Origin: a virus
Taxonomy: Duplodnaviria; Caudoviricetes
DNA length: 58,403 nucleotides
Virus record (IMG/VR): IMGVR_UViG_3300048598_000026
Coordinates: 1 to 58,403 of that record
Strand: one strand, 5' to 3'
The translations under genes were made by a program, and so were the position numbers. Shown piece after piece: positions 22,095-50,305 of this stretch. How positions within the stretch are numbered: the first letter of the stretch is position 1; every line of letters begins with the position of its first letter. The notes below the pieces were generated by a model. The model did no database searches. It was given only the letters and a program-made list of their open reading frames with translations, and was not told the DNA's origin.

Positions 22095-22626
22095 TTACAT
22101 CAACAGAAAAGCCGGACGAACCCCACGAGAAGTCGAAGCGTTGCCGGAGCCCGCACGGCCAGAGTAGAACACATAAGCGAAATGAGCTGCAGAAACTTCT
22201 TTTTTCATTGTATTTTGTATCCAATACCACTCATAGTCGTTATTGTAATCAGCAATGCGATTTTTTCTCTTTTTCATAATAATCTGGTTCCATTACACAA
22301 TCATACCAATCATCATGGCCTAATATCTGACCATACGTAGGAATACTAAGGTCACTAATCCTGTTTTTCATATCTTCGGGGAACGCATCCAATAGCACAG
22401 TGTTAATCCACTTGTAGAGATCCGATTTCTCATAACCACCTTTATTATTGTATTTGTTGTTCATGGGCTTATCCGCGACACACTCATCGAACAAAAACAG
22501 TGTTCCCTTATCGGTGATTTTCTGGGCTGTAGCGGTGAACTCACCAAAGCCAGTCAAATGAATGATGATCTGGTCGCCCACTCGAACATTGTTTGTTTCT
22601 AATTCCCGTTTTCTTAATACCTTCAT
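22095..22626 (-). pseudogene. Second DGR target (C-type-lectin-like fold), split by a frameshift into 22249-22626 and 22095-22277
   Basis: N-part KPMNN..NKGGYEKSDLYKWIN...LSIPTYGQILG; C-part WYWIQN...GVRPAF carries VR2; the two overlap in different frames. Confidence 0.75.
22112..22193 (-). repeat. DGR variable repeat VR2 (remote)
   Basis: 82-nt ungapped match to TR 31319-31400; 16 mismatches, all at TR adenines. Confidence 0.95.
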
Positions 22627-22961: not shown

Positions 22962-22985
22962 ACCATCCTCTCCCAGAAAGAAAAA

Positions 22986-23003
22986 GAGCCCTTGTTAGGA
23001 CTC
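22986..23003 (-). terminator. Intrinsic terminator, TAACAA-loop family
   Basis: GAGTCCTAACAAGGGCTC plus T-run; upstream gene's TAA stop is in the loop. Confidence 0.65.
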
Positions 23004-23153
23004 CTCTTCGTTTCTTTTGGCAAGCGCCTCATTTACTTTTTCTTCAATTTTTTCATCTATCTTCTTGTCATTAACCCAATCGGTTATGAGTGTTGCACCC
23101 ATTCCGATTACAGTTGCTGCAATACCAAGGATTTTAATCAATTTACCGTTCAT
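22995..23153 (-). CDS. Small membrane protein
   Basis: MNGKLIKILGIAATVIGMGATL...EEES*. Confidence 0.65.
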   Translation of the reverse strand: MNGKLIKILGIAATVIGMGATLITDWVNDKKIDEKIEEKVNEALAKRNEEES

Positions 23154-24810: not shown

Positions 24811-24831
24811 AAAATCCCCCAAAAGAAAAAA

Positions 24832-24849
24832 GAGTCCTTGTTAGGACTC
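24832..24849 (-). terminator. Intrinsic terminator, TAACAA-loop family
   Basis: GAGTCCTAACAAGGACTC plus T-run; stop codon in loop. Confidence 0.75.
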
Positions 24850-25113
24850 AATCTCTTTTTCTTTAATATCTCTTAATTTGATATGTTTGGTTGTAAGATT
24901 AGCATTTTTGACTTTAAGTTTCCAAATGTCAACACAAGCCGCCTTAGATAAGCCTTTTAATGTTTCAAACGCTGCTTCTGCTTGAAGAACCGTTGCTTCA
25001 CAACAATTAGCCCTTCTAAAAAGATTTAACGCTTCTTTCATTCGCTTGTCTAATTCGGTAATCATAGCGTTGAATACTTTCAACTCGTCATAATAACTCG
25101 ACTTATATACCAT
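24841..25113 (-). CDS. Hypothetical protein
   Basis: GGAGG RBS; ends ...EIES* inside the terminator. Confidence 0.6.
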   Translation of the reverse strand: MVYKSSYYDELKVFNAMITELDKRMKEALNLFRRANCCEATVLQAEAAFETLKGLSKAACVDIWKLKVKNANLTTKHIKLRDIKEKEIES

Positions 25114-25140: not shown

Positions 25141-25165
25141 CATAATAGGAGATGTTATTTTAGCG
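25141..25165 (-). promoter_or_regulatory. 25-bp motif, copy 8
   Basis: CGCTAAAATAACATCTCCTATTATG. Confidence 0.7.
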
Positions 25166-25177
25166 TAAAAGAAAAAA

Positions 25178-25195
25178 GAGTCCTTGTTAGGACTC
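25178..25195 (-). terminator. Intrinsic terminator, TAACAA-loop family
   Basis: GAGTCCTAACAAGGACTC plus T-run, immediately upstream of motif copy 8. Confidence 0.75.
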
Positions 25196-25209
25196 CTTCC
25201 TTGATTTTA

Positions 25210-25488
25210 TTAGTCTACGTATTCTACTGGATAACCAGCGAGGTCTCTTAAATATGCATCCTGACTTTCAGCCCATCCGCATTCTAAGCAATAGTAGCAA
25301 AAACCCTTAGCGTCCGGGACCATCGAAACCTTACCACATTTAGGGCATGGTCCTCTTCCTAACGTCTCTTTCAGCCTTGCAATGACCTCTTCTGGGTCTT
25401 CGTTTTCGTCCAACTCTGAGTAGTCAATCCCACTATCGTCGCCGTTATCGTAAATAAAATCGTGTTCATCTTTTTTCTTTTTGCTCAT
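25210..25488 (-). CDS. Small acidic Zn-ribbon protein
   Basis: CPKC...CLECGW. Confidence 0.65.
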   Translation of the reverse strand: MSKKKKDEHDFIYDNGDDSGIDYSELDENEDPEEVIARLKETLGRGPCPKCGKVSMVPDAKGFCYYCLECGWAESQDAYLRDLAGYPVEYVD

Positions 25489-26433: not shown

Positions 26434-26460
26434 AAATCTAAGCTAGGATAAAAAAAAAGA

Positions 26461-26509
26461 AAGAACCCTTGTTAGGGGTTCTTTCATAATAGGAATTGTA
26501 AAATTTTCG
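26461..26509 (-). promoter_or_regulatory. 25-bp motif copy 11 (26485-26509) abutting a TAACAA-loop terminator (26461-26483): empty cassette
   Basis: CGAAAATTTTACAATTCCTATTATG then AAGAACCC-CTAACAA-GGGTTCTT plus T-run. Confidence 0.65.
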
Positions 26510-27396: not shown

Positions 27397-27507
27397 TTGC
27401 TTCTACCTCCCTTCAAAAACTATTCTAGGTTAAAAACGGCTATTAGTAAAAACAACCAAAGTGGACAAAAATAAAGAGCCTTTGTTATGGCTCTTCTTTG
27501 TTTAATT

Positions 27508-27840
27508 CTAAAGACGTTTATGATCCCACAATAGGAGTTGTGATTTTTGCGACTTCCATCGAATCATGGTCATTTCACAAGGGTAGTCCTCGAAACCGAT
27601 TGTGTCAGGAATTATGAGCTCTTCTAATACACCCCTTATTATTTCAGCCTCGTATTGTTTATAGGGGTAAATATCATCTGGAAGCTCCCTGTGAATCTCT
27701 CCGCATTCTACGCATCTCAACCTGCGTATTTCTATGTATTTTGATATTCGGCCCTTAGTCCGTACAATTCTTTTAACTTTATCGTAATATTTTAAATATC
27801 CTCCGCAATCCGGGCAAGTTGACTCGTTATTATTAATCAT
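27508..27840 (-). CDS. DUF6431-like Zn-ribbon protein
   Basis: CPDC...RRLRCVECG..HRELPD..PYKQY; divergent from the integrase. Confidence 0.6.
   Translation of the reverse strand: MINNNESTCPDCGGYLKYYDKVKRIVRTKGRISKYIEIRRLRCVECGEIHRELPDDIYPYKQYEAEIIRGVLEELIIPDTIGFEDYPCEMTMIRWKSQKSQLLLWDHKRL
27527..27551 (-). promoter_or_regulatory. 25-bp motif, copy 12
   Basis: CGCAAAAATCACAACTCCTATTGTG; terminator hairpin at 27474-27495 follows about 30 nt later. Confidence 0.6.
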
Positions 27841-27961: not shown

Positions 27962-28010
27962 TACATAATTCAACTAGAAATTCTTAATCAAGTTGGAAAG
28001 GAGGAACATC

Positions 28011-29249
28011 ATGTTAATGAAATGTCCAGAATGCGAACTGCAAGTAAGCGATAAGGCACTGTCTTGTCCTCATTGTGGATTCCCGTTACAGCCGGATGTA
28101 AAACCAAGAAAACCTAGAAATAAAAATAACAAGAGAAGACGCTTACCTAATGGATTCGGACAAATAAGTGAGATAAAGAATCGCAATCTTAGAAACCCGT
28201 TTCGGGCAATGGTTACAGTCGGAAAGACACCTACCGGTAGACCCATTTGTAAACCTCTCAAACCGGAATCGTATTTCCCAACATATAACGATGCTTATAC
28301 TGCGTTAGTAGAGTATAACAAGAATCCATATGATTTAGAGCCATCAATAACGGTAAAAGAGCTTTATGAAAAGTGGACAAAAGAATACTTTAAGACTATT
28401 GGAGAATCTAGCATAAGAGGAACTGAAGATGCTTGGCGATATTGTACAGCCGTACACAATATGAGGGTGATAGATATTCGAGCCCGTCACATAAAAGGTT
28501 GTATGGAAGAGGGTAAAGCTACGATTAGAGGTAAAGAGCAAATGCCAAGTGCCTCTATGAAAAACAAAATCAAGACTCTATTCAACCAGATGCTTGACTA
28601 CGCTGTGGAATATGAGCTTGTAGACCGGAATTACTCCAGGACCTTCAATTTATCCGACGAAACCATTAAAGAGATTCAGACGGTTAAGAAGGAGCATATA
28701 GCATTTGCTGATTCGGAAATGGAGTTGCTTTGGCAGCATGTAGACAACAAGCGACTTGTTGACGTCTTGCTTATTCAATGCTATTCTGGATGGAGACCCC
28801 AAGAACTCGGTCTAATCGAACTAACTAAAGTGGATTTGGACAAGGGGTTATTCACCGGAGGTATGAAAACAGACTCCGGCACTGACAGAACTGTTCCAAT
28901 CCATTCACGCATTAAATATCTGGTAGAGAGAAAATATGAAGAGGCTCAGAAACTAGGCAGCGATTACTTGTTCAACTATATTGACGTGGACGGTAATCGA
29001 AGAAATATAAAGCTGACTTACAACCGGTATAAGAAAGTATTCGAACGAATCCGCGATGAACTTAACTTAAATCCTGAACACAGGCCTCATGATGGACGTA
29101 AGCATTTCGTCACGGCTGCTAAAAAATACGGCGTTGACGAGTACGCAATCAAATATATGGTCGGTCATAAAATTTCAGATATTACCGAGAAAGTATACAC
29201 TGACAGAGAGTTAAAGTGGCTTAAAGAGGAAATAGAAAAAATAAAATAG
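28011..29249 (+). CDS. int: Tyrosine integrase with N-terminal Zn ribbon
   Basis: YSGWRPQE, K, HDGRKHF, MVGH...TEKVY catalytic residues; N-terminal CPEC...CPHC. Confidence 0.92.
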   Translation: MLMKCPECELQVSDKALSCPHCGFPLQPDVKPRKPRNKNNKRRRLPNGFGQISEIKNRNLRNPFRAMVTVGKTPTGRPICKPLKPESYFPTYNDAYTALVEYNKNPYDLEPSITVKELYEKWTKEYFKTIGESSIRGTEDAWRYCTAVHNMRVIDIRARHIKGCMEEGKATIRGKEQMPSASMKNKIKTLFNQMLDYAVEYELVDRNYSRTFNLSDETIKEIQTVKKEHIAFADSEMELLWQHVDNKRLVDVLLIQCYSGWRPQELGLIELTKVDLDKGLFTGGMKTDSGTDRTVPIHSRIKYLVERKYEEAQKLGSDYLFNYIDVDGNRRNIKLTYNRYKKVFERIRDELNLNPEHRPHDGRKHFVTAAKKYGVDEYAIKYMVGHKISDITEKVYTDRELKWLKEEIEKIK

Positions 29250-29950: not shown

Positions 29951-30000
29951 AAGCGGATACCTCCTTAAGGAATTCTTGTGGCGGTATATGAAAAGAAAAA

Positions 30001-30018
30001 GAGCCCTTGTTAGGACTC
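30001..30018 (-). terminator. Intrinsic terminator after the DGR RT, TAACAA-loop family
   Basis: Identical to 22986-23003 including flanks. Confidence 0.65.
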
Positions 30019-30024
30019 CTCTTT

Positions 30025-31209
30025 TTATAAAAGGACCAGTTTCTTATTGACAATAATAACCTTCTTATTAAACAGTTCCTCATAAAGGCATATAAGATTT
30101 TGTCTTTGTTGCCTTGATAATAGTTTGTAGAAACTACCCATCCAACCTTTAAACATATTTTCAACATTCTCATAGAGGACGTCGCCATTTTTCACTTTGA
30201 TGGCGAGTTTCTTTAGTTTTCTACGTATTGCTGTGACGCGTTCCGGATTTATTCGCTTTATGATCTTACCAGAACTGGTCAAGGTATATTTTATTTGGAG
30301 ATACTTATACGTGCCGCCGATTACCACGATTCTGGTCTTTTTCTCATTAATGTGGATCCCTAACCCCTTAGCAATTACACGAATATGATTTAAAATATCA
30401 AGTAATTCTTCTTTTGATGGGTTCATTATGTACCAATCATCCATATAACGCCCATAATATTTTTGACTTCTTACGTATTTTACATAATTGTCTATACGAT
30501 ATGGGTAATAGATACCAATTACTTGAGATAGTTGATCACCAATATTTACAGATTTTTCCATAAACTTCTTGCCTGTAAGCTCAGATTTTGGAATGAGCCT
30601 GTACTCAAGTTTGTTAAACGTATCTTCCATACAGGTAGAATACTCTTCGTCCGTCATATACGATGCATCAATTTTAAACCCATCAAATATAAGAGTAAGT
30701 AACCAGTCAATGAATTCATCATCGTCTAATAGCTTAAGTAGCTCCCTCTTGGCAATTTCGTGAATGACGTTGTCAAAGAACTTACTAAAATCACCAAACA
30801 AAATATAACCTTCATTACCATGCTCTATATAATATTTTCGGAGATGTACCTCGAAACGATTTCTCGAATGTGAGATTCCACGCCCCTTAATAGAAGCACC
30901 GTTATCGTAAATGATCTTTTTCTGAACCTCGGGAAGTAATATCTCATCACATAAAACATGACGGACTATACGATCCTTGGTTTGTAGACTTGTAATAGGC
31001 CTAACTCTACCTCGTTCAGAAAGTGAGAACTCATCAGTTGGTCCATTTTGTAGACTTCTGTTGATAAGATCTTCTTGAATGAAAAATATATACCGAAGGA
31101 AGTTCAGCATTACCTTTTGAGTTGACTCCTTCCATTTACTTCCTTTTATAGAGGCTTTGTAGGCCTTATACAAGTTATTGGCGTCGCAAAGTATCTCCTC
31201 ATAATTCAT
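30025..31209 (-). CDS. DGR reverse transcriptase
   Basis: DRIV, GDFSKFFDN, IGDQLSQ, YGRYMDD; adjacent TR and Avd. Confidence 0.95.
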   Translation of the reverse strand: MNYEEILCDANNLYKAYKASIKGSKWKESTQKVMLNFLRYIFFIQEDLINRSLQNGPTDEFSLSERGRVRPITSLQTKDRIVRHVLCDEILLPEVQKKIIYDNGASIKGRGISHSRNRFEVHLRKYYIEHGNEGYILFGDFSKFFDNVIHEIAKRELLKLLDDDEFIDWLLTLIFDGFKIDASYMTDEEYSTCMEDTFNKLEYRLIPKSELTGKKFMEKSVNIGDQLSQVIGIYYPYRIDNYVKYVRSQKYYGRYMDDWYIMNPSKEELLDILNHIRVIAKGLGIHINEKKTRIVVIGGTYKYLQIKYTLTSSGKIIKRINPERVTAIRRKLKKLAIKVKNGDVLYENVENMFKGWMGSFYKLLSRQQRQNLICLYEELFNKKVIIVNKKLVLL

Positions 31210-31318
31210 AGTTATTCACCGTTATAGCAATAGTTACCTTAGTAAATTGCGTCCGGCTTTGTCATTTATCCTTGATGGAAAGGATAGCATCTCCTTCTCT
31301 GTTGGTTAGGCAGAGAAT
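31210..31318 (-). ncRNA. DGR spacer RNA segment (3' of TR)
   Basis: Hairpins at 31295-31317, 31267-31286 and 31227-31250; segment AAAGCCGGACG at 31250-31260. Confidence 0.7.
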
Positions 31319-31400
31319 CCGGACGAACCCCATTAGAATTCGAAGCGTTGTTGGAGTTCGCATTGCCATTGTTGTTCACATTAGCGAAATTAGCTGCAGA
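31319..31400 (-). repeat. DGR template repeat (TR)
   Basis: 11 AAY codons; matches VR1 and VR2 except at adenines. Confidence 0.97.
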
Positions 31401-31408
31401 TTTAGATG

Positions 31409-31894
31409 CTACCCCTGTAAATATAATTTGATCTTGTTGTCTCTTTGACGCCATTTCTTTATCAAACCGATTTCTCGGTTAATAGCTTTGATGTACTTTC
31501 CATAGATATTGATGTCGACTTCAAATATTTCTACGACTCGCTGTAGCTCTTTGACTAGTTGTTCGCAATTTGCTATTGCGTCGTTCTGGTAATCTCTTCG
31601 ACGCTCATATTCATGCAAAGAAGTCGGATAAAGAGTATTAGCTGCTCTCACGTTGCTTGTAAGTAGAGATGATATATGGTCAATACGATTTTTAGAGTTC
31701 TGCATCAAATATCTGTATTTTGCAAAATCTTCTTTATCATCTTTTCCATATGCATAGCGAATACGTACAAGATTGTCCAAATCTTTAACGCCGAAACTTC
31801 TTTGCATGAGTTCTGTGAGCATAGCGTGTAGCTCTATGGAATAAGTTACCGCCTCAAATTTTGATTCTTTACGGTCGCTAACTAGAACACTCAT
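31409..31894 (-). CDS. avd: DGR accessory variability determinant (Avd-like)
   Basis: Basic helical protein ...AANTLYP...RRDYQ..AI..C...E..LIKKWR immediately upstream of TR. Confidence 0.75.
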   Translation of the reverse strand: MSVLVSDRKESKFEAVTYSIELHAMLTELMQRSFGVKDLDNLVRIRYAYGKDDKEDFAKYRYLMQNSKNRIDHISSLLTSNVRAANTLYPTSLHEYERRRDYQNDAIANCEQLVKELQRVVEIFEVDINIYGKYIKAINREIGLIKKWRQRDNKIKLYLQG

Positions 31895-32034
31895 TAGTAA
31901 GCCTTGCCGGTGATTTCTTCGAATTCGGCTTCAGTAATCCAGTTCATTATAACCGCATTTCGAACCCGAGTCTCATTCCACATCTTCATGACATAATAAG
32001 TCTTTACTTTATTGTAATTATCGCTATAATTCAT
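31894..32034 (-). CDS. XkdX-family small protein (absent from the ORF track)
   Basis: MNYSDNYNKVKTYYVMKMWNETRVRNAVIMNWITEAEFEEITGKAY; TAATG coupling to avd. Confidence 0.85.
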   Translation of the reverse strand: MNYSDNYNKVKTYYVMKMWNETRVRNAVIMNWITEAEFEEITGKAY

Positions 32035-32049
32035 GGTGATCCTCCTCTC

Positions 32050-32385
32050 TTAAAGCTCTACGCCCGTCATCATTGACAGATAATCGATGTCGGACCGAAT
32101 CTTAATCTGTTTGAGTTCTTCTAAAGAAATATCACGAAGAACAAACCAGTATTCACTGTTAACTTCGGTAACCTGAACGAGCTCCATGTTGTCATGGATT
32201 TCATCATGAGTTCCATCACTGATTATGACCGGAGAGCACTTGCCGTCAAAAACTTCCGGATCGATAGGTTCTACGGAAATATAATTATTCCCATTGAGTT
32301 TAAGGTTGTTTATTTCCGTTCCGTCATTAAGAGTGATTTTATAGTTTTTTTCATCCATTTCCATTTCAACTCTCATCCCTTTCAA
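32050..32385 (-). CDS. Tail-associated hypothetical protein upstream of xkdX
   Basis: C-terminal SDIDYLSMMTGVEL; actual start may be a few codons downstream. Confidence 0.7.
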   Translation of the reverse strand: MKGMRVEMEMDEKNYKITLNDGTEINNLKLNGNNYISVEPIDPEVFDGKCSPVIISDGTHDEIHDNMELVQVTEVNSEYWFVLRDISLEELKQIKIRSDIDYLSMMTGVEL

Positions 32386-32399
32386 TTTTTTCTTTTTTT

Positions 32400-32430
32400 A
32401 TAACATATATTCCGGTAACCTGCGTACGGA
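32400..32430 (-). promoter_or_regulatory. 31-bp second-class motif, copy B (upstream of the DGR operon)
   Basis: TCCGTACGCAGGTTACCGGAATATATGTTAT. Confidence 0.55.
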
Positions 32431-32441
32431 GTTTTTAAAAT

Positions 32442-32456
32442 GGGGCACAAGGCCCC
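32442..32456 (-). other. DGR hairpin/cruciform downstream of VR1
   Basis: GGGGC-CTTGT-GCCCC 9 nt after the target stop codon. Confidence 0.7.
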
Positions 32457-32465
32457 TAGATTAAG

Positions 32466-33287
32466 CTAACCAACAGGGAATGCCGGACGAACCCCAAAAG
32501 AAAACGAAGCGTTGTTGGAGTACGCATTGCCAAAGCTGTTCACAAAAGCGAAATTAGCTGCAGAAACGACATCTCTCAACCAGATTGATTGGCGATTCTT
32601 ATACGCTCTTGGATTAAGTCTAAACAATGATAGCTGCGAATTATCAATAGTGGTCCTTGTAGGAACAACTACCCCATTACCTGCTGGAGTACGTACGTAA
32701 GATCCATATACCATAATTTCATTCATAAGCTCAACGCTGGAATCAAACCATGCAGCGGCGGAAGAAGCACCATCAGTTACAGCGTTTACGAGATATTCTC
32801 TATGAGTGAGAAGCATATCACCAAAAGCTGTTAAAATTGTGGTCTTTGCATTATCTAGATTCGCTGTATACATGAGGGAGCCTACATAACCGCCCTCGGT
32901 AGTGTTTGTGGTATTCATCACCGCATTATAAAGTGAACCGTTAGGAACAATCACTAGATGGTGTTTCGTAAATGCGGTATCGCCGCAATTATACCAGTAA
33001 TCCATATCTGCTATTACCCAAGATACACCATTGATAACCCAGTAATCCCCGATGAACAAATCGTCAAATGTTCCGGATTGAATTGCCGCTTTCTGAGCCG
33101 CAGTAATAGTGGTTCCAAGATTTTTCCCTCTGTAAACATTTCGACGATTAACCACCGAAACAAGACCTGCAAATTCGATGGCCGCATCGCTAGCAAGAAT
33201 CTTTTTAGTACCACCACTACCATCTTTAATAAGGATATCTCCGGCGGTAAATCGAGTATCGGCAGCGTAAGTAATAAGTTTTGCCAT
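32466..33287 (-). CDS. DGR target 1, probable receptor-binding tail protein with C-terminal CLec-like fold
   Basis: Ends IWLRDVV-VR1-GVRPAFPVG; in tail module. Confidence 0.88.
   Translation of the reverse strand: MAKLITYAADTRFTAGDILIKDGSGGTKKILASDAAIEFAGLVSVVNRRNVYRGKNLGTTITAAQKAAIQSGTFDDLFIGDYWVINGVSWVIADMDYWYNCGDTAFTKHHLVIVPNGSLYNAVMNTTNTTEGGYVGSLMYTANLDNAKTTILTAFGDMLLTHREYLVNAVTDGASSAAAWFDSSVELMNEIMVYGSYVRTPAGNGVVVPTRTTIDNSQLSLFRLNPRAYKNRQSIWLRDVVSAANFAFVNSFGNAYSNNASFSFGVRPAFPVG
32483..32564 (-). repeat. DGR variable repeat VR1
   Basis: 82-nt match to TR; 10 mismatches, all at TR adenines. Confidence 0.97.
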
Positions 33288-33302
33288 TTTGAATTTTCCT
33301 CC

Positions 33303-39558: not shown

Positions 39559-42500
39559 TTAAATCCCCCTTCTTTCATAAATTACTCGTTGTCCAAAAGA
39601 AGAATCCAAAGGACCTACTAAGGCTCCAACTAATGTGCCGGTATCCATCACGATCTTTAGTTTACTCATGGTATTAGTCAAAACCGACATGTCATTACGA
39701 AGTTCTTCTATCGCTTTAACCACATTATCATTGTTAAGTATGATATTGTTTTGATTATCAGCAGTAGAATCATTCATACTCATGCCGATTTTTCCGGCTA
39801 AATTAATTGATCTTTGCGAGTAAAGCATCTTATCAACTTCGTTAACGCCTTTTATTACATTTGATAAATCTATAACTGGTCGGATTGTAGGCTCTGTATC
39901 CATATTAAAGTCCAAAGTGTCTGCTATTCCTGAAATTGCATTAGATATTCCCTTGATAGCGCTTTCACCAACATCCCTAGATGCGTCTACCACTTTAGAA
40001 GAGTAGTTTTTTAAACCACGAACAAACCCATCACCAGAATATTTACCAAATTCAATGAACGATTTAGAAGAGGAAATAGCATTGGAAACAACGCTTTTAA
40101 CAGCTGAAATAACGCTTATAGCTGTGTTCTGTATGCCTTTCTTTAACCCATCAACTTCGTTAACGCCTTTTGTTACATTTGATAAATCTATAATCGGTCG
40201 GATTGTAGGTTCTATATCGATCTTACCATTAACTATATCCGCCATGTTTGAAACGGTGTTCTTCAATGATTCCTTGGTATCATTGCCAATTTTTTTAACT
40301 TCTTTTACTGATAATTCGGAATATTCCCTTAAACCACCAGCAAAACCCTCCATGGAATACATGCCAATTTTTGCGAATTCCTTAGATGGTGATTTAATAC
40401 CGAGTGCCTTTTTAGCCGCTACTAAAGCTTTCTTAGCAGCATCAGCCGTAGCAATTGCTAACTCTACAGCTTGACTATTAACGCCGGCAGTTATACCATC
40501 TATAATGCTTTTTCCAAGTCCAACCCAATCTGGCTGTTGTAAAGCGTTTTGCATATTAGTCGCAATTTCTACAAAGTCTTTATTGTTCTCAACCTTTAAC
40601 GTTTCTACATTTGCATTCCATTTTGAATTAAAATCCGTAAGTTGAACTTGAGTTACCGAAGTTATTTCAGCAAGTTGCTTTCGATATATATTTTTTAATT
40701 CTTGAAGATCCTTTTGGGCTTGAGACTTTAAAAGTTTAATTTGTTTATCGGATTCAATACGAATTCCTTCAAGTTCTTTTGTTGCCTTTTTACTTGCCTG
40801 ACTATACTTCTCTTCCCATAGATCTGAGTATTTATCTAATTCAGGCCCACTGAGTTGGTTCAAAGCCTTAATCTTTTCAAGCGCTGTTGGGCCCATTTCT
40901 GTGAGTTCTTGAAGGAGACCTTCGCTAATGCCTTTATTTGCAAGTTTCTTTAAGTCTCTCTCCCATTCGTCAAATGCTTCAACTTGACTTTCTAAGTTTG
41001 TTAGTAGTTCAGAACCAGATACCGATTGTTCAGGTTCTTCAACTTTATCAAACAGACCATATGCATCATATAAGGCATTGGTACGAGACGCAAGAGCACT
41101 CTCGTATTTGTCGTTCACAGCCTGTATGTCTTGTTTGAGCTTTTCGTTGACTTCTGCGGTCTTTGAGTAATAATCGTTTTCTAATTGTTTTTTCTTCTCA
41201 GTTATCTCTTTATTAACTCTGTAAACCTCACGATCGGCTCTTTTACGTTCCTCAGTACCGGCTAAATATCGGCTTTGTATGCGCTCCCAAGCAGCGAGTT
41301 CCTCCATTAAGCTTAGATTGTTATAATATTTTCTATCATCAATCCACTTAACAGAATTATCAAATTCAGATTTGAGAAGCTCATTTTTAACCCGATATAC
41401 TTCCTTATCAACTCTTTTACGTTCTTCAGTACCGGCTAAATATCGGCTTTGTACTCGTTCCCAAGCAGCTAATTCCTCCATTAAACTTAGATCGTTATAA
41501 TATTTTCTATCATCAATCCACTTAACAGAATTATCAAATTCGGCTTTGATAAGCTCGTTTTTGACCCGATATACTTCCTTATCGGCTCTTTTACGTTCCT
41601 CAGTACCGGCTAAATATCGGCTTTGTATGCGCTCCCAAGCAGCGAGTTCCTCCATTAAGCTTAGATTGTTATAATATTTTCTATCATCAATCCACTTAAC
41701 AGAATTATCAAATTCATCCTTACTTGCTTTCACTGCTTTTTTAGCCATAGTCGATGACTCTGCGACTGCCTTCGGGGTTTCCTGTTTTATACCATTCGTT
41801 AGTCCAGCAACAATATTTTCACCAAACCCTTGAAATACCTTAGAAGGTGAGTGAATACCCAACAAATTCTTAGCTGCGGAAATAGCATCAGAAACAACGC
41901 CTTTCGCAGCTAAAACAACACTACCCGCTGCATTCTGTATGCCACGCTTTAACCCATTAATCAAATCACTGCCCATTGAGGTAAACTCGGATAATTTGCC
42001 TTTTATTCCGGATAAAACATTCGATATAATATTGGTGGCCGCATTCTTAACATCAGAAATCTTATTGGAAATACCATTCTTGAGGTTTATCGTTAATTCC
42101 TCGCCTTTTGACAAGAACTCGCCCATCTTATTAGATATAGCTGAAACCAAATCGGTTACAACATTGATGATGGATTGAACCGCGTCAGAAAGCTTATTGG
42201 AAATACCATTGATAAGACCCTGAATGATATTCATACCAATATCAGTAAATACCTTAGAAGGTGAGTGAATACCGAGGAATACCAATACAACTTCTAATAA
42301 TGACTTAAACAAGTGAATAAACGCATCTCTGATACGAGGGGCATTTTCTTCTATCCCCTGAGCTAGTCCATCGATAAGGCTAATAATAATGTCAATACCC
42401 GCTTGAATGACGTCAGGAATCATCGATGTAATTCCTTGTAAAAAGCCAATAAGTATCTTTATACCGGCTTGTACTATTTGTGGAATATGACTAGCTAACG

Positions 42501-48887: not shown

Positions 48888-49625
48888 CTAATAGACAACA
48901 GATTGCATTGAATTACCGAAGCTATCCAAAAGTAAATCATTGTTCGAATCTCTTAAATACATATGAATTTGAAAAAGCTCTTTTATCTCTGAAACTAATG
49001 GAAGTCTCGCATCCGTTTCGGTACTGCCATACAATACTTCTTCTATACTTTTTAAAACATTAACCAAACCGGAAGACTTGAATTTTGTAGAGTCGCAAAT
49101 CAGGAACGCAATAGGTTTAAACCCATCAACCAATACCGGGGTAGTGGTAATTTCCCAGGAAAAAGTTATTGCTTCTGGGCTATCATTAATGGTTGAATAT
49201 TCTTTATCCGAAGGAGCCGCCAAAGCTCCATAAATCAAATGAATCTTATATCCATAATCGGTTGCATCTTTATCATTACCAATTAAAGTACGATAGCATA
49301 AACCAAAAAGCGATTTCTTCTGTTGAGTAATCGTAATCCCAGGAATTATCGCATGTTCACCTAAACATCGCTTAAATTCATCAGGATAAGTATAAGCCTC
49401 AATTGTGGCACCGAATTCTTCGGCGGATAGCAGATTCAAATACTTGATGTTATCAGCATACAAAGGGTTGGGTTCAGCACCCGAAGGGGATTCGGTTACA
49501 GCTGTAAGACCACTCCACGCAACACCTTTCGTGTACCCTCCAGTCTGAATAGGATAAAGAACACCATGACTGACACCGGTTTCATAAAAACGTTCACCGG
49601 TCTTATCCCAAACAAGTTTCGACAT
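48888..49625 (-). CDS. Major tail protein paralog 2 with C-terminal extension
   Basis: First ~84 aa identical to paralog 1; extra LRDSNNDLLLDS tail. Confidence 0.8.
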   Translation of the reverse strand: MSKLVWDKTGERFYETGVSHGVLYPIQTGGYTKGVAWSGLTAVTESPSGAEPNPLYADNIKYLNLLSAEEFGATIEAYTYPDEFKRCLGEHAIIPGITITQQKKSLFGLCYRTLIGNDKDATDYGYKIHLIYGALAAPSDKEYSTINDSPEAITFSWEITTTPVLVDGFKPIAFLICDSTKFKSSGLVNVLKSIEEVLYGSTETDARLPLVSEIKELFQIHMYLRDSNNDLLLDSFGNSMQSVVY

Positions 49626-50305
49626 TTTGATTCCTCCTAAATTAAGAAGACATCAGCGTAATAATCTCAGCGGGTAGAGGTAGTCTTGACTCGGTCTGAG
49701 TATCACCATAAAGAATTTTTTCCAAAGCGAATAAATTTGCCTCATTAACCTTAGTGCTATCAATAGTCACACTAGCTGTCGGCTTATGACTCGGGACATC
49801 AACTGGTGTGGTGGTAATTTCCCAGGAAAAAGTTATTGCTTCTGGGCTATCATTAATGGTTGAATATTCTTTATCCGAAGGAGCCGCCAAAGCTCCATAA
49901 ATCAAATGCAGCTTATAACCATGATCATTGTTGTCAATGTCATTACCGATAATTGTTCTATAACAAAGACCGAAAGTTTTACGGTTTTGCTGTCCGATTT
50001 TCACCCCAGGAGCAATTTCCGCAGAACCATCGCACTCTGCGAATTCATCAGGATAAGTATAAGCCTCAATTGTGGCACCGAATTCTTCGGCGGATAGCAG
50101 ATTCAAATACTTGATGTTATCAGCATACAAAGGGTTGGGTTCAGCACCCGAAGGGGATTCGGTTACAGCTGTAAGACCACTCCACGCAACACCTTTCGTG
50201 TACCCTCCAGTCTGAATAGGATAAAGAACACCATGACTGACACCGGTTTCATAAAAACGTTCACCGGTCTTATCCCAAACAAGTTTCGACATTTTGATTC
50301 CTCCT
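49375..50305. repeat. 264-bp exact direct repeat (49375-49638 = 50042-50305); second 98-bp block 49144-49241 = 49811-49908
   Basis: Direct comparison; both blocks offset by 667 bp. Confidence 0.9.
49642..50292 (-). CDS. Major tail protein paralog 1
   Basis: ESPSGAE, YADNIKY, IEAYTYPDEF, INDSPEAITFSWE. Confidence 0.85.
   Translation of the reverse strand: MSKLVWDKTGERFYETGVSHGVLYPIQTGGYTKGVAWSGLTAVTESPSGAEPNPLYADNIKYLNLLSAEEFGATIEAYTYPDEFAECDGSAEIAPGVKIGQQNRKTFGLCYRTIIGNDIDNNDHGYKLHLIYGALAAPSDKEYSTINDSPEAITFSWEITTTPVDVPSHKPTASVTIDSTKVNEANLFALEKILYGDTQTESRLPLPAEIITLMSS

What the first reader, a model, noticed from the sequence alone, without database searches (positions are those of the whole stretch)
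31250..31260. Spacer segment AAAGCCGGACG: candidate self-primer that also matches both target junctions
Seen: this DGR-RNA segment is complementary to the TR 3' end (CGUCCGG, 7 bp) and, over 11 nt, to the VR 3' junctions: VR2 CGTCCGGCTTT (11/11) and VR1 CGTCCGGCATT (10/11). The TR itself diverges there (CGTCCGGATTC). Known: BPP-1 cDNA is primed in cis from the spacer, giving an RNA-cDNA chimera. Inference: extension from this segment gives a chimera continuously complementary to VR plus IMH, which would explain IMH versus IMH* directionality by base pairing.
Basis: partly seen in the sequence, partly recalled or inferred. Interest (0 to 1): 0.82.

Follow-up and report, generated by a model that had tools for sequence, protein, structure and literature searches.

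The report
DGR spacer segment, probably not the primer
The flagged 11-base stretch really is complementary to the end of this phage retroelement's template, but comparison with relatives suggests the self-primer that matches the target flanks is a different hairpin about 35 bases upstream, as in the known Bordetella phage system.

Summary
The window holds a diversity-generating retroelement (DGR) on the minus strand: VR1 target, avd, TR, a 109-nt spacer (Sp), RT, and a remote VR2. Sp59-69 AAAGCCGGACG (31260-31250) complements the last 7 nt of TR, VR2's junction 11/11 and VR1's 10/11.

Three results argue against it being the primer:
- In 127 VRs of related loci plus the window, the 4-nt extension into the VR flank holds in only 3. 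Sp AAAG is invariant in 134/134 while the VR flank varies, because it encodes Val/Ala-Phe.
- The 7-bp TR pairing has one compensatory change in 92 distinct sequences and 47 broken cells.
- Its last G covaries with the next stem-loop instead.

Covariation supports a BPP-1-like RNA. Hairpin H1 (Sp2-8:Sp18-24) is followed by invariant GG, an 11-bp avd:Sp duplex, a short stem-loop, adenosines and a 3' stem-loop. By that layout the likely primer is A24 (31295), and the flagged segment sits where BPP-1 has its single-stranded "Thumb Ring".

The RNA just 5' of A24 (Sp10-26) complements the VR1 flank 15/17 and co-varies with VR flanks across lineages. Directionality through primer-IMH pairing was already proposed for BPP-1 in 2017. 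Verdict: right principle, wrong segment; a new member of a known kind.

The parts
31250..31260 (-). The flagged segment, Sp59-69 AAAGCCGGACG. It forms the last part of a single-stranded linker plus the first base (G69, 31250) of stem-loop H5. AAAGC and A67 are invariant and positions 65-66 vary.
31227..31250 (-). H5, the 3' stem-loop GCAAUUUAC-UAAG-GUAACUAUUGC. Relatives have a UACG tetraloop, and the stem has a 2-nt bulge. By order of elements it corresponds to the BPP-1 bRT-binding stem-loop.
   Evidence: 9 pairs, 3 with changes on both sides, 99.9% of cells paired. Position by analogy.
31261..31268 (-). UAAAUGAC (Sp51-58). The adenosines follow the short stem-loop; UAAAU is nearly invariant. 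Candidate equivalent of BPP-1 A80/A81 (A-minor contacts).
   Evidence: BPP-1 description
31269..31279 (-). H3, a short stem-loop UCC-AUCAA-GGA (Sp40-50). Many relatives have a GNRA tetraloop, and some have a longer stem.
   Evidence: 3 pairs, 99.6% paired, 1 with a double change
31282..31292 (-). Spacer strand of H2 (Sp27-37 AGAUGCUAUCC). It pairs with the 3' end of avd and is the equivalent of the BPP-1 cPRT-Stop duplex.
   Evidence: 11 pairs, 7 with changes on both sides
31404..31414 (-). avd-side strand of H2 (GGGUAGCAUCU). It spans the avd stop codon and lies immediately 5' of TR.
31293..31294 (-). Invariant G25 G26 linker between H1 and H2. It has the same layout as BPP-1 G57 C58.
   Evidence: invariant columns
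31295..31301 (-). 3' strand of H1 (Sp18-24 CAGAGAA), the predicted primer strand. A24 (31295) is the predicted priming adenosine.
   Evidence: 7 pairs, 5 with changes on both sides. The role is inferred from the BPP-1 layout.
31302..31310 (-). H1 loop CCUAACCAA (Sp9-17), nearly invariant in the family. It is complementary to the VR flank TTGGTTAG.
31311..31317 (-). 5' strand of H1 (Sp2-8 UUCUCUG). It lies right after the GC-rich TR end and is the IMH*-like template-side strand. A1 (31318) precedes it.
31319..31403 (-). Template repeat TR, 85 nt as aligned to the VRs, ending in GGGGUUCGUCCGG
30025..31209 (-). DGR reverse transcriptase gene. A probable Shine-Dalgarno GGUGA lies at 31216-31220.
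   Evidence: RVT_1, 2.9e-16; phrog_1423, 4.4e-56
31409..31894 (-). avd (accessory variability determinant) gene
   Evidence: phrog_3206 'Avd protein of DGR', 1.5e-10. No Pfam or NCBIfam hit.
32466..32567 (-). VR1 (32483-32567) plus its 17-nt 3' flank (32482-32466, CATTCCCTGTTGGTTAG, the IMH-like element including the stop codon) at the end of target gene 32466-33287
32442..32456 (-). GC-rich hairpin GGGGC-CTTGT-GCCCC downstream of the VR1 flank. It sits in the same position as the BPP-1 DNA stem-loop after IMH.
   Evidence: sequence; BPP-1; AATC..GGGG recurs in relatives' VR flanks
22096..22196 (-). VR2 (22112-22196) plus its 3' flank (22111-22096, CTTTTCTGTTGATGTA) at the end of a DUF6273 gene that is split by a frameshift

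Best explanation
The segment belongs to the DGR RNA spacer but is most likely not the primer. Shown by covariation: the RNA of this DGR family folds into H1 (Sp2-8:Sp18-24), invariant GG, an 11-bp duplex between Sp27-37 and the 3' end of avd (H2), a short stem-loop H3 followed by UAAAU, an approximately 18-nt linker, and stem-loop H5. Inferred from the BPP-1 cryo-EM layout: H1 is the template:primer duplex and A24 (31295) donates the 2'-OH. Copying would start at A1/G0 (31318/31319), at the very end of the TR-VR homology. H2 plus H3 and the adenosines would form the stop module. The flagged segment (the end of the linker plus the first base of H5) would then correspond to the protein-bound single strand that BPP-1 calls the Thumb Ring, next to the RT-binding stem-loop. 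Its invariant AAAGC and A67 would be protein contacts, and its 7-nt complementarity to the TR end would be incidental or at most an auxiliary pairing. The RNA that is complementary to the target flanks is Sp10-26, just 5' of the predicted priming site.
For: Support for the other helices, in 92 distinct sequences (alignment A2):
- H2 has 7 of 11 pairs with changes on both sides.
- H1 has 5 of 7.
- H5 has 3 of 9.
- Overall 97.5-97.7% of cells are paired, against 43-49% when partners are slid by 1-3 columns.

The flagged pairing H4 fares much worse. It has 1 double change in 1 sequence and 47 non-paired cells. All 7 pairs are standard in 63 of 92 sequences, while 16, 6 and 7 sequences have 1, 2 and 3 broken pairs. 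G69 pairs within H5 in 91 of 92 sequences, including 7 AU, against 83 of 92 with TR.

The layout matches BPP-1. There, primer strand Sp47-56 ends in A56, followed by G57 C58, then Sp59-70 paired to avd369-379 (11 bp), then a 2-bp stem with a UNCG loop, A80/A81, the Thumb Ring Sp82-94 and the stem-loop Sp95-139 (preprint 10.1101/2023.10.23.563531, sections 6-8). I checked the residue numbering on AY029185.2.

Distant DGRs keep the order TR-flank strand, insert with its own stem-loop...GGAA, GG, AG..., with an upstream partner for the last element. This is seen in L147 and its relatives, L158 and L164; in L147 the upstream partner is a perfect 11-mer.

Complementarity to the VR flanks:
- The reverse complement of Sp10-26 matches the VR1 flank 15/17. 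None of 5000 shuffles reach its local score.
- The VR2 flank matches 10 of its first 11 bases; 63 of 5000 shuffles reach its local score.
- Across 31 spacer types, own-versus-swapped VR flanks score 331.2 against 265.9 +/- 8.9, with 0 of 20000 permutations as high.
- Lineage-specific changes are mirrored in L104, L127, L131, L133 and L135.

CCGGACGC or a close variant also sits before the last stem-loop in the distant L147 family, whose TR ends lack CGUCCGG.
Against: No junction has been mapped, so the role of H1 rests on analogy with BPP-1.
- H1 could instead be the counterpart of the BPP-1 Avd-binding stem-loop, which also lies just 3' of TR. Our family has only a 9-nt loop where BPP-1 has that stem-loop.
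- The TR strand of H4 is constrained by what it writes into the VR (Arg-Pro codons). Lack of compensation on that side is therefore weak evidence against H4.
- Changes at two spacer C positions opposite G are C-to-U, which keeps G-U pairs (18 and 23 sequences).
- L125 shows one G-C to A-U change in H4.
- L158, whose TR ends in CGCGUCG, has CGAUGCG two bases downstream of the homologous site, giving 7 pairs with one G-U (read by eye).
- The chimera predicted from H1 is one base shorter than most VR junctions: TR has GG-A-TTC where VRs have GG-TC-TTC.
- In L161 and L164 the primer-side RNA matches the VR flank only over about 5-6 bases.
- In BPP-1 the first template base is G, whereas here it would be A.
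Confidence: 0.65

Rival explanations
1. Sp63-69 pairs with the last 7 nt of TR as the template:primer duplex. cDNA is primed near 31250, and the RNA-cDNA chimera is continuously complementary to the VR plus the first 4 nt of its flank, which would set the direction of homing.
For: The 7-bp GC-rich complementarity occurs in 43 of 20000 shuffles for that exact 7-mer. It is fully paired in 63 of 92 distinct relatives. In this window it matches VR2 11/11 and VR1 10/11, against 9/11 for TR. BPP-1 likewise uses 7 canonical pairs near the TR 3' end. L158 may carry a compensated version two bases away.
Against: The flank extension holds 4/4 in only 3 of 127 VRs and 2/4 in 106, while AAAG is invariant in 134/134. 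The two central pairs are broken in 16 and 17 of 92 sequences without compensation, and G69 covaries with H5 instead. TR-end variants are uncompensated in the L129-L134 clade, L126/L133, L117 and L164. The pairing crosses H2, so it would be a pseudoknot, and it is not followed by a stop duplex as in BPP-1. The difference between VR and TR is only 1-2 of 11 bases.
Confidence: 0.08
2. The segment does not prime, but its pairing with the TR end is real as an auxiliary long-range contact. It would form a pseudoknot stacked on H1. That could hold the first template bases in a resting state, or help place the TR 3' end next to the RT-bound linker.
For: The same complementarity statistics as above. 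Only C-to-U changes occur at the two variable positions opposite G. L125 shows an A-U change and L158 a shifted 7-bp match. L116 keeps 6 pairs with one bulged C (by eye). BPP-1 RNPs show several conformations, including a resting one (passages and section 11).
Against: The central pairs are lost in about a fifth of distinct relatives. No equivalent pairing is visible in the BPP-1 sequence (by eye). In the L147 family the conserved motif has only 5-7 possible pairs, at a different place in TR (by eye).
Confidence: 0.2
3. H1 is only the Avd-binding stem-loop, and the family primes somewhere not identified here: a third site, an exogenous primer, or a nicked RNA 3'-OH. The match between Sp10-26 and the VR flanks would then be a relic of how the TR cassette arose.
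For: In BPP-1 the stem-loop immediately 3' of TR binds Avd. The preprint reports putative Avd-binding stem-loops just downstream of TR in 207 of 278 DGRs.
Against: Only two invariant bases separate H1 from the stop duplex, as with the BPP-1 primer strand. Distant relatives place a separate tetraloop hairpin inside the H1 loop, as BPP-1 does. Sp10-26 and the VR flanks co-vary, which a relic would not do.
Confidence: 0.07

Closest known systems
Bordetella phage BPP-1 DGR RNA: TR:Sp template:primer duplex with priming from the 2'-OH of Sp A56 (Handa 2018, passages read; Handa et al. preprint 2023/24, sections 6-8, 10 and 11 read)
   Same: The gene order is target-VR, avd, TR, spacer, RT. The TR ends in a GC-rich block. 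A fold-back helix lies right after that block, its 3' strand ends in A, two linker bases follow, and then comes an 11-bp duplex with the avd 3' end. After that come a short tetraloop hairpin, adenosines, a single-stranded linker and a terminal stem-loop.
   Different: Here the two strands of the fold-back helix are joined by a 9-nt loop rather than by an Avd-binding stem-loop. The spacer is 109 nt against 140. The predicted first template base is A rather than G. Priming chemistry has not been tested.
Naorem et al. [quoted passage not shown]
   Same: The RNA just 5' of the predicted priming site complements the VR flanks much better than the TR flank resembles them. For VR1 this is 15/17, against 7/17 direct similarity of the TR flank. 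The same trend appears in BPP-1 (9/9 against 6/9) and in L147, L156 and L158.
   Different: Here the complementarity extends through the hairpin loop to about 17 nt and co-varies across lineages. Most VR junctions have a 1-nt register offset.
BPP-1 'Thumb Ring' (Sp82-94) and bRT-binding stem-loop (Sp95-139)
   Same: The flagged segment lies in the single-stranded stretch between the adenosines after the short hairpin and the terminal stem-loop. It has a mix of invariant and free positions.
   Different: There is no sequence similarity to BPP-1. The assignment rests on order of elements only, and no structure exists for this family.
Retron msr-msd priming from an internal 2'-OH
   Same: A branched RNA-cDNA is primed in cis from an internal nucleotide next to a short duplex. 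The preprint draws the same comparison.
   Different: Retrons prime from a G, have no TR/VR pair, no Avd and no adenine mutagenesis. This element has all the DGR parts.

Membership tests
Diversity-generating retroelement (DGR) | A TR/VR repeat pair whose differences fall at TR adenines | tested here: met
   VR1 has 13 of 13 mismatches at TR A, and VR2 has 19 of 19. The 85-nt TR has 26 A.
Diversity-generating retroelement (DGR) | Reverse transcriptase gene next to TR | tested here: met
   RVT_1 at 2.9e-16 and phrog_1423 at 4.4e-56. The gene starts 109 nt after the TR end. No DGR-specific RT model was available, and the NCBIfam hits were all below their cut-offs.
Diversity-generating retroelement (DGR) | Avd accessory gene | tested here: met
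   phrog_3206 'Avd protein of DGR' at 1.5e-10. No Pfam or NCBIfam hit.
Diversity-generating retroelement (DGR) | VR at the 3' end of a target gene, followed by an IMH-like flank and a DNA hairpin | tested here: met
   VR1 ends 17 nt before the stop codon's end in ORF 32466-33287, and a GC hairpin lies at 32442-32456. VR2 lies at the end of a DUF6273 gene. Function of the flank was not tested.
BPP-1-type cis-priming DGR RNA | Duplex between the avd 3' end and the spacer (cPRT Stop) | tested here: met
   11 pairs, 7 with changes on both sides
BPP-1-type cis-priming DGR RNA | A fold-back duplex at the TR 3' flank whose spacer strand ends two bases before the stop duplex | tested here: met
   H1 has 7 pairs, 5 with changes on both sides, and is followed by invariant GG. 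That it is the template:primer duplex is an inference.
BPP-1-type cis-priming DGR RNA | Short hairpin followed by adenosines after the stop duplex | tested here: met
   H3 plus UAAAU. A-minor contacts are not testable here.
BPP-1-type cis-priming DGR RNA | Priming from the 2'-OH of an internal adenosine, giving a branched RNA-cDNA | not testable with these tools
   No sequencing run was listed. This needs biochemistry.
   1 double change in 1 of 92 sequences, 47 broken cells, and the last G covaries with H5
   CTTT flank in 3 of 127 VRs, AAAG invariant in 134/134, and matches to TR, VR1 and VR2 of 9, 10 and 11 out of 11

The most novel reading that the evidence does not exclude
In this prophage DGR family the roughly 17 nt of RNA immediately 5' of the predicted priming adenosine (H1 loop plus 3' strand, 31309-31293) is kept complementary to the DNA flank of the VRs, including VR2, which belongs to an unrelated target protein family (DUF6273), and it changes together with those flanks from lineage to lineage. 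If this reflects RNA:DNA pairing, or copying of that RNA into the flank, during homing, it would be comparative evidence from a second, distant DGR lineage that primer-IMH pairing chooses the target and sets the direction. It would also give a simple rule for predicting or re-aiming DGR targets. I found no such comparative analysis in two full-text searches. A 2026 paper still calls the integration step incompletely understood (passages).
Probability: 0.45. Interest if true: 0.6.

Novelty: new member of a known kind. Interest (0 to 1): 0.38.

Why it matters
How DGR cDNA finds and enters the variable region, and why information flows only from TR to VR, is still unresolved. The flagged segment does not answer that question. 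The locus and its roughly 135 relatives do give a clean natural data set in which the BPP-1 RNA architecture can be recognised by covariation. In that data set the RNA next to the predicted priming site tracks the VR flanks. This turns the 2017 primer-IMH pairing idea into something testable in a second system from gut Bacillota prophages, with precise predictions: the junction should fall at 31293-31295, and swapping Sp10-26 together with the VR flank should preserve homing.

Tried and rejected
Steps that gave nothing or were set aside:
- **Single-sequence folding.** It was not informative by itself.
- **Annotated phages.** A blastn of the DGR region against that collection found no match.
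- **Rfam.** A scan of 31100-31500 at E <= 1 found no family.
- **Sequencing runs.** The look-up of sequencing runs for 30025-33300 listed none, so read laying was not used and no junction reads could be sought.
- **More distant DGRs.** Two further scans with the RTs of L158 and L164 returned only contigs already held.
- **An alternative avd-side partner.** I considered AAAUGGCGUC, about 45 nt upstream of the avd stop, which is 9/10 complementary to Sp GACGCAAUUU. I dropped it because that spacer stretch covaries as the local hairpin H5.
- **Other partners for AAAGC within TR.** I looked by eye at GCUU around the AACGCTTCG stretch. That stretch varies in relatives while AAAGC does not.

Rows dropped before counts:
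- Of 147 loci, 136 had at least 340 nt upstream and an N-terminal RT match.
- Of 137 sequences (136 loci plus the window), 3 lacked a recognisable TR junction motif; one of these was L147, which also has a divergent spacer.
- 15 of the remaining 134 had no VR within the fetched flank.
- Six VRs with flank TCTACAAG do not show the TTGGTTAG element. They were kept in the counts.

Supplementary files of the papers were not opened. Table S3 of the Handa preprint, which lists DGRs with predicted RNA elements, may already include this family.
Full report
**What is at the site**

The window carries a DGR on the minus strand. Its parts are:
- the RT gene at 30025-31209 (RVT_1 2.9e-16; phrog_1423 4.4e-56);
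- a 109-nt spacer, with Sp1 at 31318;
- TR at 31319-31403;
- avd at 31409-31894 (phrog_3206, 1.5e-10);
- VR1 at 32483-32567, at the end of ORF 32466-33287, next to tail-fibre-like genes;
- a remote VR2 at 22112-22196, at the end of a DUF6273 gene.

All 13 TR-VR1 differences and all 19 TR-VR2 differences lie at TR adenines.

The flagged bases 31260-31250 read AAAGCCGGACG in RNA sense, which is Sp59-69. They complement the last 7 TR bases CGUCCGG. Their reverse complement matches the VR2 junction 11/11, VR1 10/11 and the TR junction 9/11.

The 7-mer core is rare by chance. It appears in 43 of 20000 shuffles for that exact 7-mer, and in 735 of 20000 for any 7-mer complementary to the last 15 TR bases. 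The extra bases toward the VRs are the codons Ala-Phe of the target proteins (CGT CCG GCT TTT and CGT CCG GCA TTC).

I fetched 147 related loci, 80 viral contigs and 67 genome contigs, mostly Lachnospiraceae and other Bacillota. Of these, 136 had enough upstream sequence. Together with the window, 134 had recognisable TR-junction and spacer motifs, and 127 VRs were found in 119 of them.

- Sp AAAGC is invariant in 134/134, and the TR flank is ATTC in 133/134.
- The first four bases of the VR flank take 13 forms. TCTT accounts for 87, TATT 8, ACTT 7, TCTA 6 and CATT 4, with TTTT, CTTT and CCTT at 3 each.
- CTTT, the complement of AAAG, therefore occurs in 3 of 127 VRs, one being the window's VR2.
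- The full 11-mer match is 11/11 in 3 VRs, 10/11 in 4, 9/11 in 55, 8/11 in 35 and lower in 30.

There is no covariation. The long match in this window comes from the particular Ala codons of its two targets.

**The pairing with TR**

I aligned 92 distinct sequences of the 256 nt upstream of the RT (A2) and counted pairs for a structure I specified.

Two pairs vary by C-to-U opposite G, in 18 and 23 sequences. It has 47 cells that are not standard pairs, and the two central pairs are broken in 16 and 17 sequences.

All seven pairs are standard in 63 of 92 sequences, while 16, 6 and 7 sequences have one, two and three breaks.

The segment's last base, G69 at 31250, pairs with the 3' end of the next stem-loop in 91 of 92 sequences (GC 82, AU 7, GU 2). 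With the TR cytosine it pairs in 83 of 92. When G69 becomes A, the stem-loop partner becomes U and the TR base does not change.

TR-end variants are not compensated in the spacer in the L129-L134 clade, L126/L133, L117 or the more distant L164.

Some points favour the pairing. The TR strand cannot vary freely, because it writes Arg-Pro codons into the VR. The two variable spacer positions that lie opposite G show only the pair-preserving C-to-U change. L158, whose TR ends in CGCGUCG, has CGAUGCG two bases downstream of the homologous place (by eye). I therefore keep an auxiliary pairing as a live rival.

**What the RNA looks like**

The other helices are well supported.
- **H2** is an 11-bp duplex between GGGUAGCAUCU at the avd 3' end (31414-31404) and Sp27-37 (31292-31282). 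It has 7 pairs with changes on both sides.
- **H1** pairs Sp2-8 UUCUCUG (31317-31311) with Sp18-24 CAGAGAA (31301-31295). It has 5 of 7 such pairs.
- **H3** is a 3-bp stem, often with a GNRA loop, followed by a nearly invariant UAAAU.
- **H5** (31250-31227) has a UACG tetraloop in relatives and 3 covarying pairs.
- Overall 97.5-97.7% of cells pair, against 43-49% when the partners are slid by 1-3 columns.
- An independent RNAalifold run recovered H1, part of H2, H3 and H5.

**Comparison with BPP-1**

The Handa et al. preprint describes the BPP-1 elements in order (sections 6-8, 10 and 11 read):
- TR117-129 paired with Sp47-56, with A56 priming;
- two linker bases, G57 and C58;
- Sp59-70 paired with avd369-379 (11 canonical pairs, the "cPRT Stop");
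- a 2-bp stem with a UNCG loop;
- A80 and A81, which make A-minor contacts;
- the single-stranded Thumb Ring, Sp82-94;
- the bRT-binding stem-loop, Sp95-139;
- an Avd-binding stem-loop, Sp3-33, lying between the template and primer strands.

I confirmed the numbering on AY029185.2. U114, G117, U118, G119, A56, G57, C58, U63 and A80/A81 all fall where the papers say.

The window's RNA has the same order. H1's 3' strand ends in A24, invariant G25 G26 follow, and then come the stop-duplex strand, hairpin, adenosines, linker and terminal stem-loop. The difference is that H1's strands are joined by a 9-nt loop rather than by an Avd-binding hairpin.

More distant DGRs keep "...GGAA-GG-AG..." with an upstream partner and place a separate tetraloop hairpin inside the H1 loop, as BPP-1 does. 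I saw this in L147 (RT 28% identical) and its relatives L149-L154, in L158 and in L164 (by eye).

From this I infer that H1 is the template:primer duplex, that A24 (31295) is the primer, and that copying starts at A1/G0 (31318/31319). By position the flagged segment corresponds to the Thumb Ring plus the first pair of the RT-binding stem-loop. These roles are inferences, not demonstrations.

A CCGGACGC-like motif (SCGRACGC) also precedes the last stem-loop in the L147 family, whose TR ends differ. This suggests the motif is conserved for a reason other than pairing with CGUCCGG. Short 5-7-bp pairings elsewhere in those TRs cannot be excluded.

**Where the complementarity to the target flanks really lies**

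The reverse complement of Sp10-26 (31309-31293) is CCTTCTCTGTTGGTTAG. The VR1 flank directly after CGTCCGG is CATTCCCTGTTGGTTAG, a 15/17 match. Its local score is 13, and 0 of 5000 shuffles reach that.

The VR2 flank CTTTTCTGTTG matches 10 of its first 11 bases in a register one base shorter. Here 63 of 5000 shuffles reach the local score. The TR flank read in the same direction shares only 7/17 and 9/17.

In relatives, VR flanks read TTC-NNN-RTTGGTTAR, which is complementary to the nearly invariant H1 loop and the 3' strand. Lineage-specific changes are mirrored:
- L104: ATCGGTTAAA;
- L127: GGTGT;
- L131: ATTGGC;
- L133: 15 of 16;
- L135: 20 of 22 aligned bases, with one gap.

Across 31 spacer types the summed own-pair score is 331.2, against 265.9 +/- 8.9 for permuted pairings, with 0 of 20000 permutations as high. 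Shuffled spacers give a mean score of 5.1 against 10.8 for own pairs.

Exceptions and caveats:
- Six VRs with flank TCTACAAG lack the element.
- Most VR junctions are one base longer than the predicted chimera.
- L161 and L164 show only about 5-6 complementary bases.
- Relatedness inflates such statistics.

**What was already known**

Naorem et al. [quoted passage not shown]

On the BPP-1 sequence, the reverse complement of Sp47-56 is TGACCACCTA. VR has TGACCACCT at the corresponding place and TR has TGCCCATCA (by eye).

Two full-text searches turned up no comparative study of this pairing in other DGR families. A 2026 paper still calls the integration step incompletely understood (passages).

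**Verdict**

My probabilities are:
- 0.65 that the segment is a conserved linker and stem-loop element and that H1/A24 is the priming module;
- 0.20 that the segment makes an auxiliary pairing with the TR end;
- 0.08 that it is the primer;
- 0.07 that priming occurs at a site not identified here.

This is a new member of a known kind.

Noticed in passing
window 22095-22626 (-): The VR2 target gene (DUF6273) is split into two overlapping ORFs, 22249-22626 and 22095-22277, in different frames. The break lies at an A-rich run (GAAAAAGAGAAAAAATCG). It could be a pseudogene, a sequencing error or programmed slippage. VR2 still differs from TR only at adenines.
   Followed up: partly
window 32442-32456 (-); VR flanks of related loci: A GC-rich hairpin GGGGC-CTTGT-GCCCC follows the VR1 flank, preceded by AATCT. 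Most relatives' VR flanks show AATC followed by a G-run at the same distance. This resembles the DNA stem-loop required downstream of IMH in BPP-1.
   Followed up: partly
window 22969-23018, 24815-24864, 25161-25210, 26448-26491, 27459-27508, 29984-30033: A dispersed family of intergenic hairpins (AAAGAGYCCTTGTTAGGACTC) recurs after several small genes, and one lies just downstream of the RT gene. They look like terminator or REP-like elements with a shared CTTGTT loop.
   Followed up: no
L147 4791-4798; L149-L154: A distant DGR family (RT about 28% identical) carries a conserved spacer motif SCGRACGC-UUCUUGCAUGG before its last stem-loop. This resembles CCGGACGC in the window's spacer, although the TR ends differ.
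   Followed up: partly
L006, L035, L133 (TR region) and L052: In some relatives the repeat next to the RT has lost most adenines and looks VR-like (L006, L035, L133). In L052 nearly the whole TR is missing, with avd sequence running into GGTCC-GGATTC. These are possibly decayed or rearranged cassettes.
   Followed up: no
window 41206-41716 and 49135-50305: There are three tandem 174-nt repeats (87-93% identical). There is also a duplicated block of about 440 nt made of two repeat families, 264 nt at 100% and 174 nt at 85% identity, each at 667-nt spacing. The genes they lie in were not examined.
   Followed up: no
window 27993-29249 (+): A 418-aa ORF on the opposite strand lies about 800 nt beyond the RT gene's end. 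From its sequence alone it looks like a tyrosine recombinase/integrase, which would place the DGR at one end of a prophage. It was not searched against any library.
   Followed up: no
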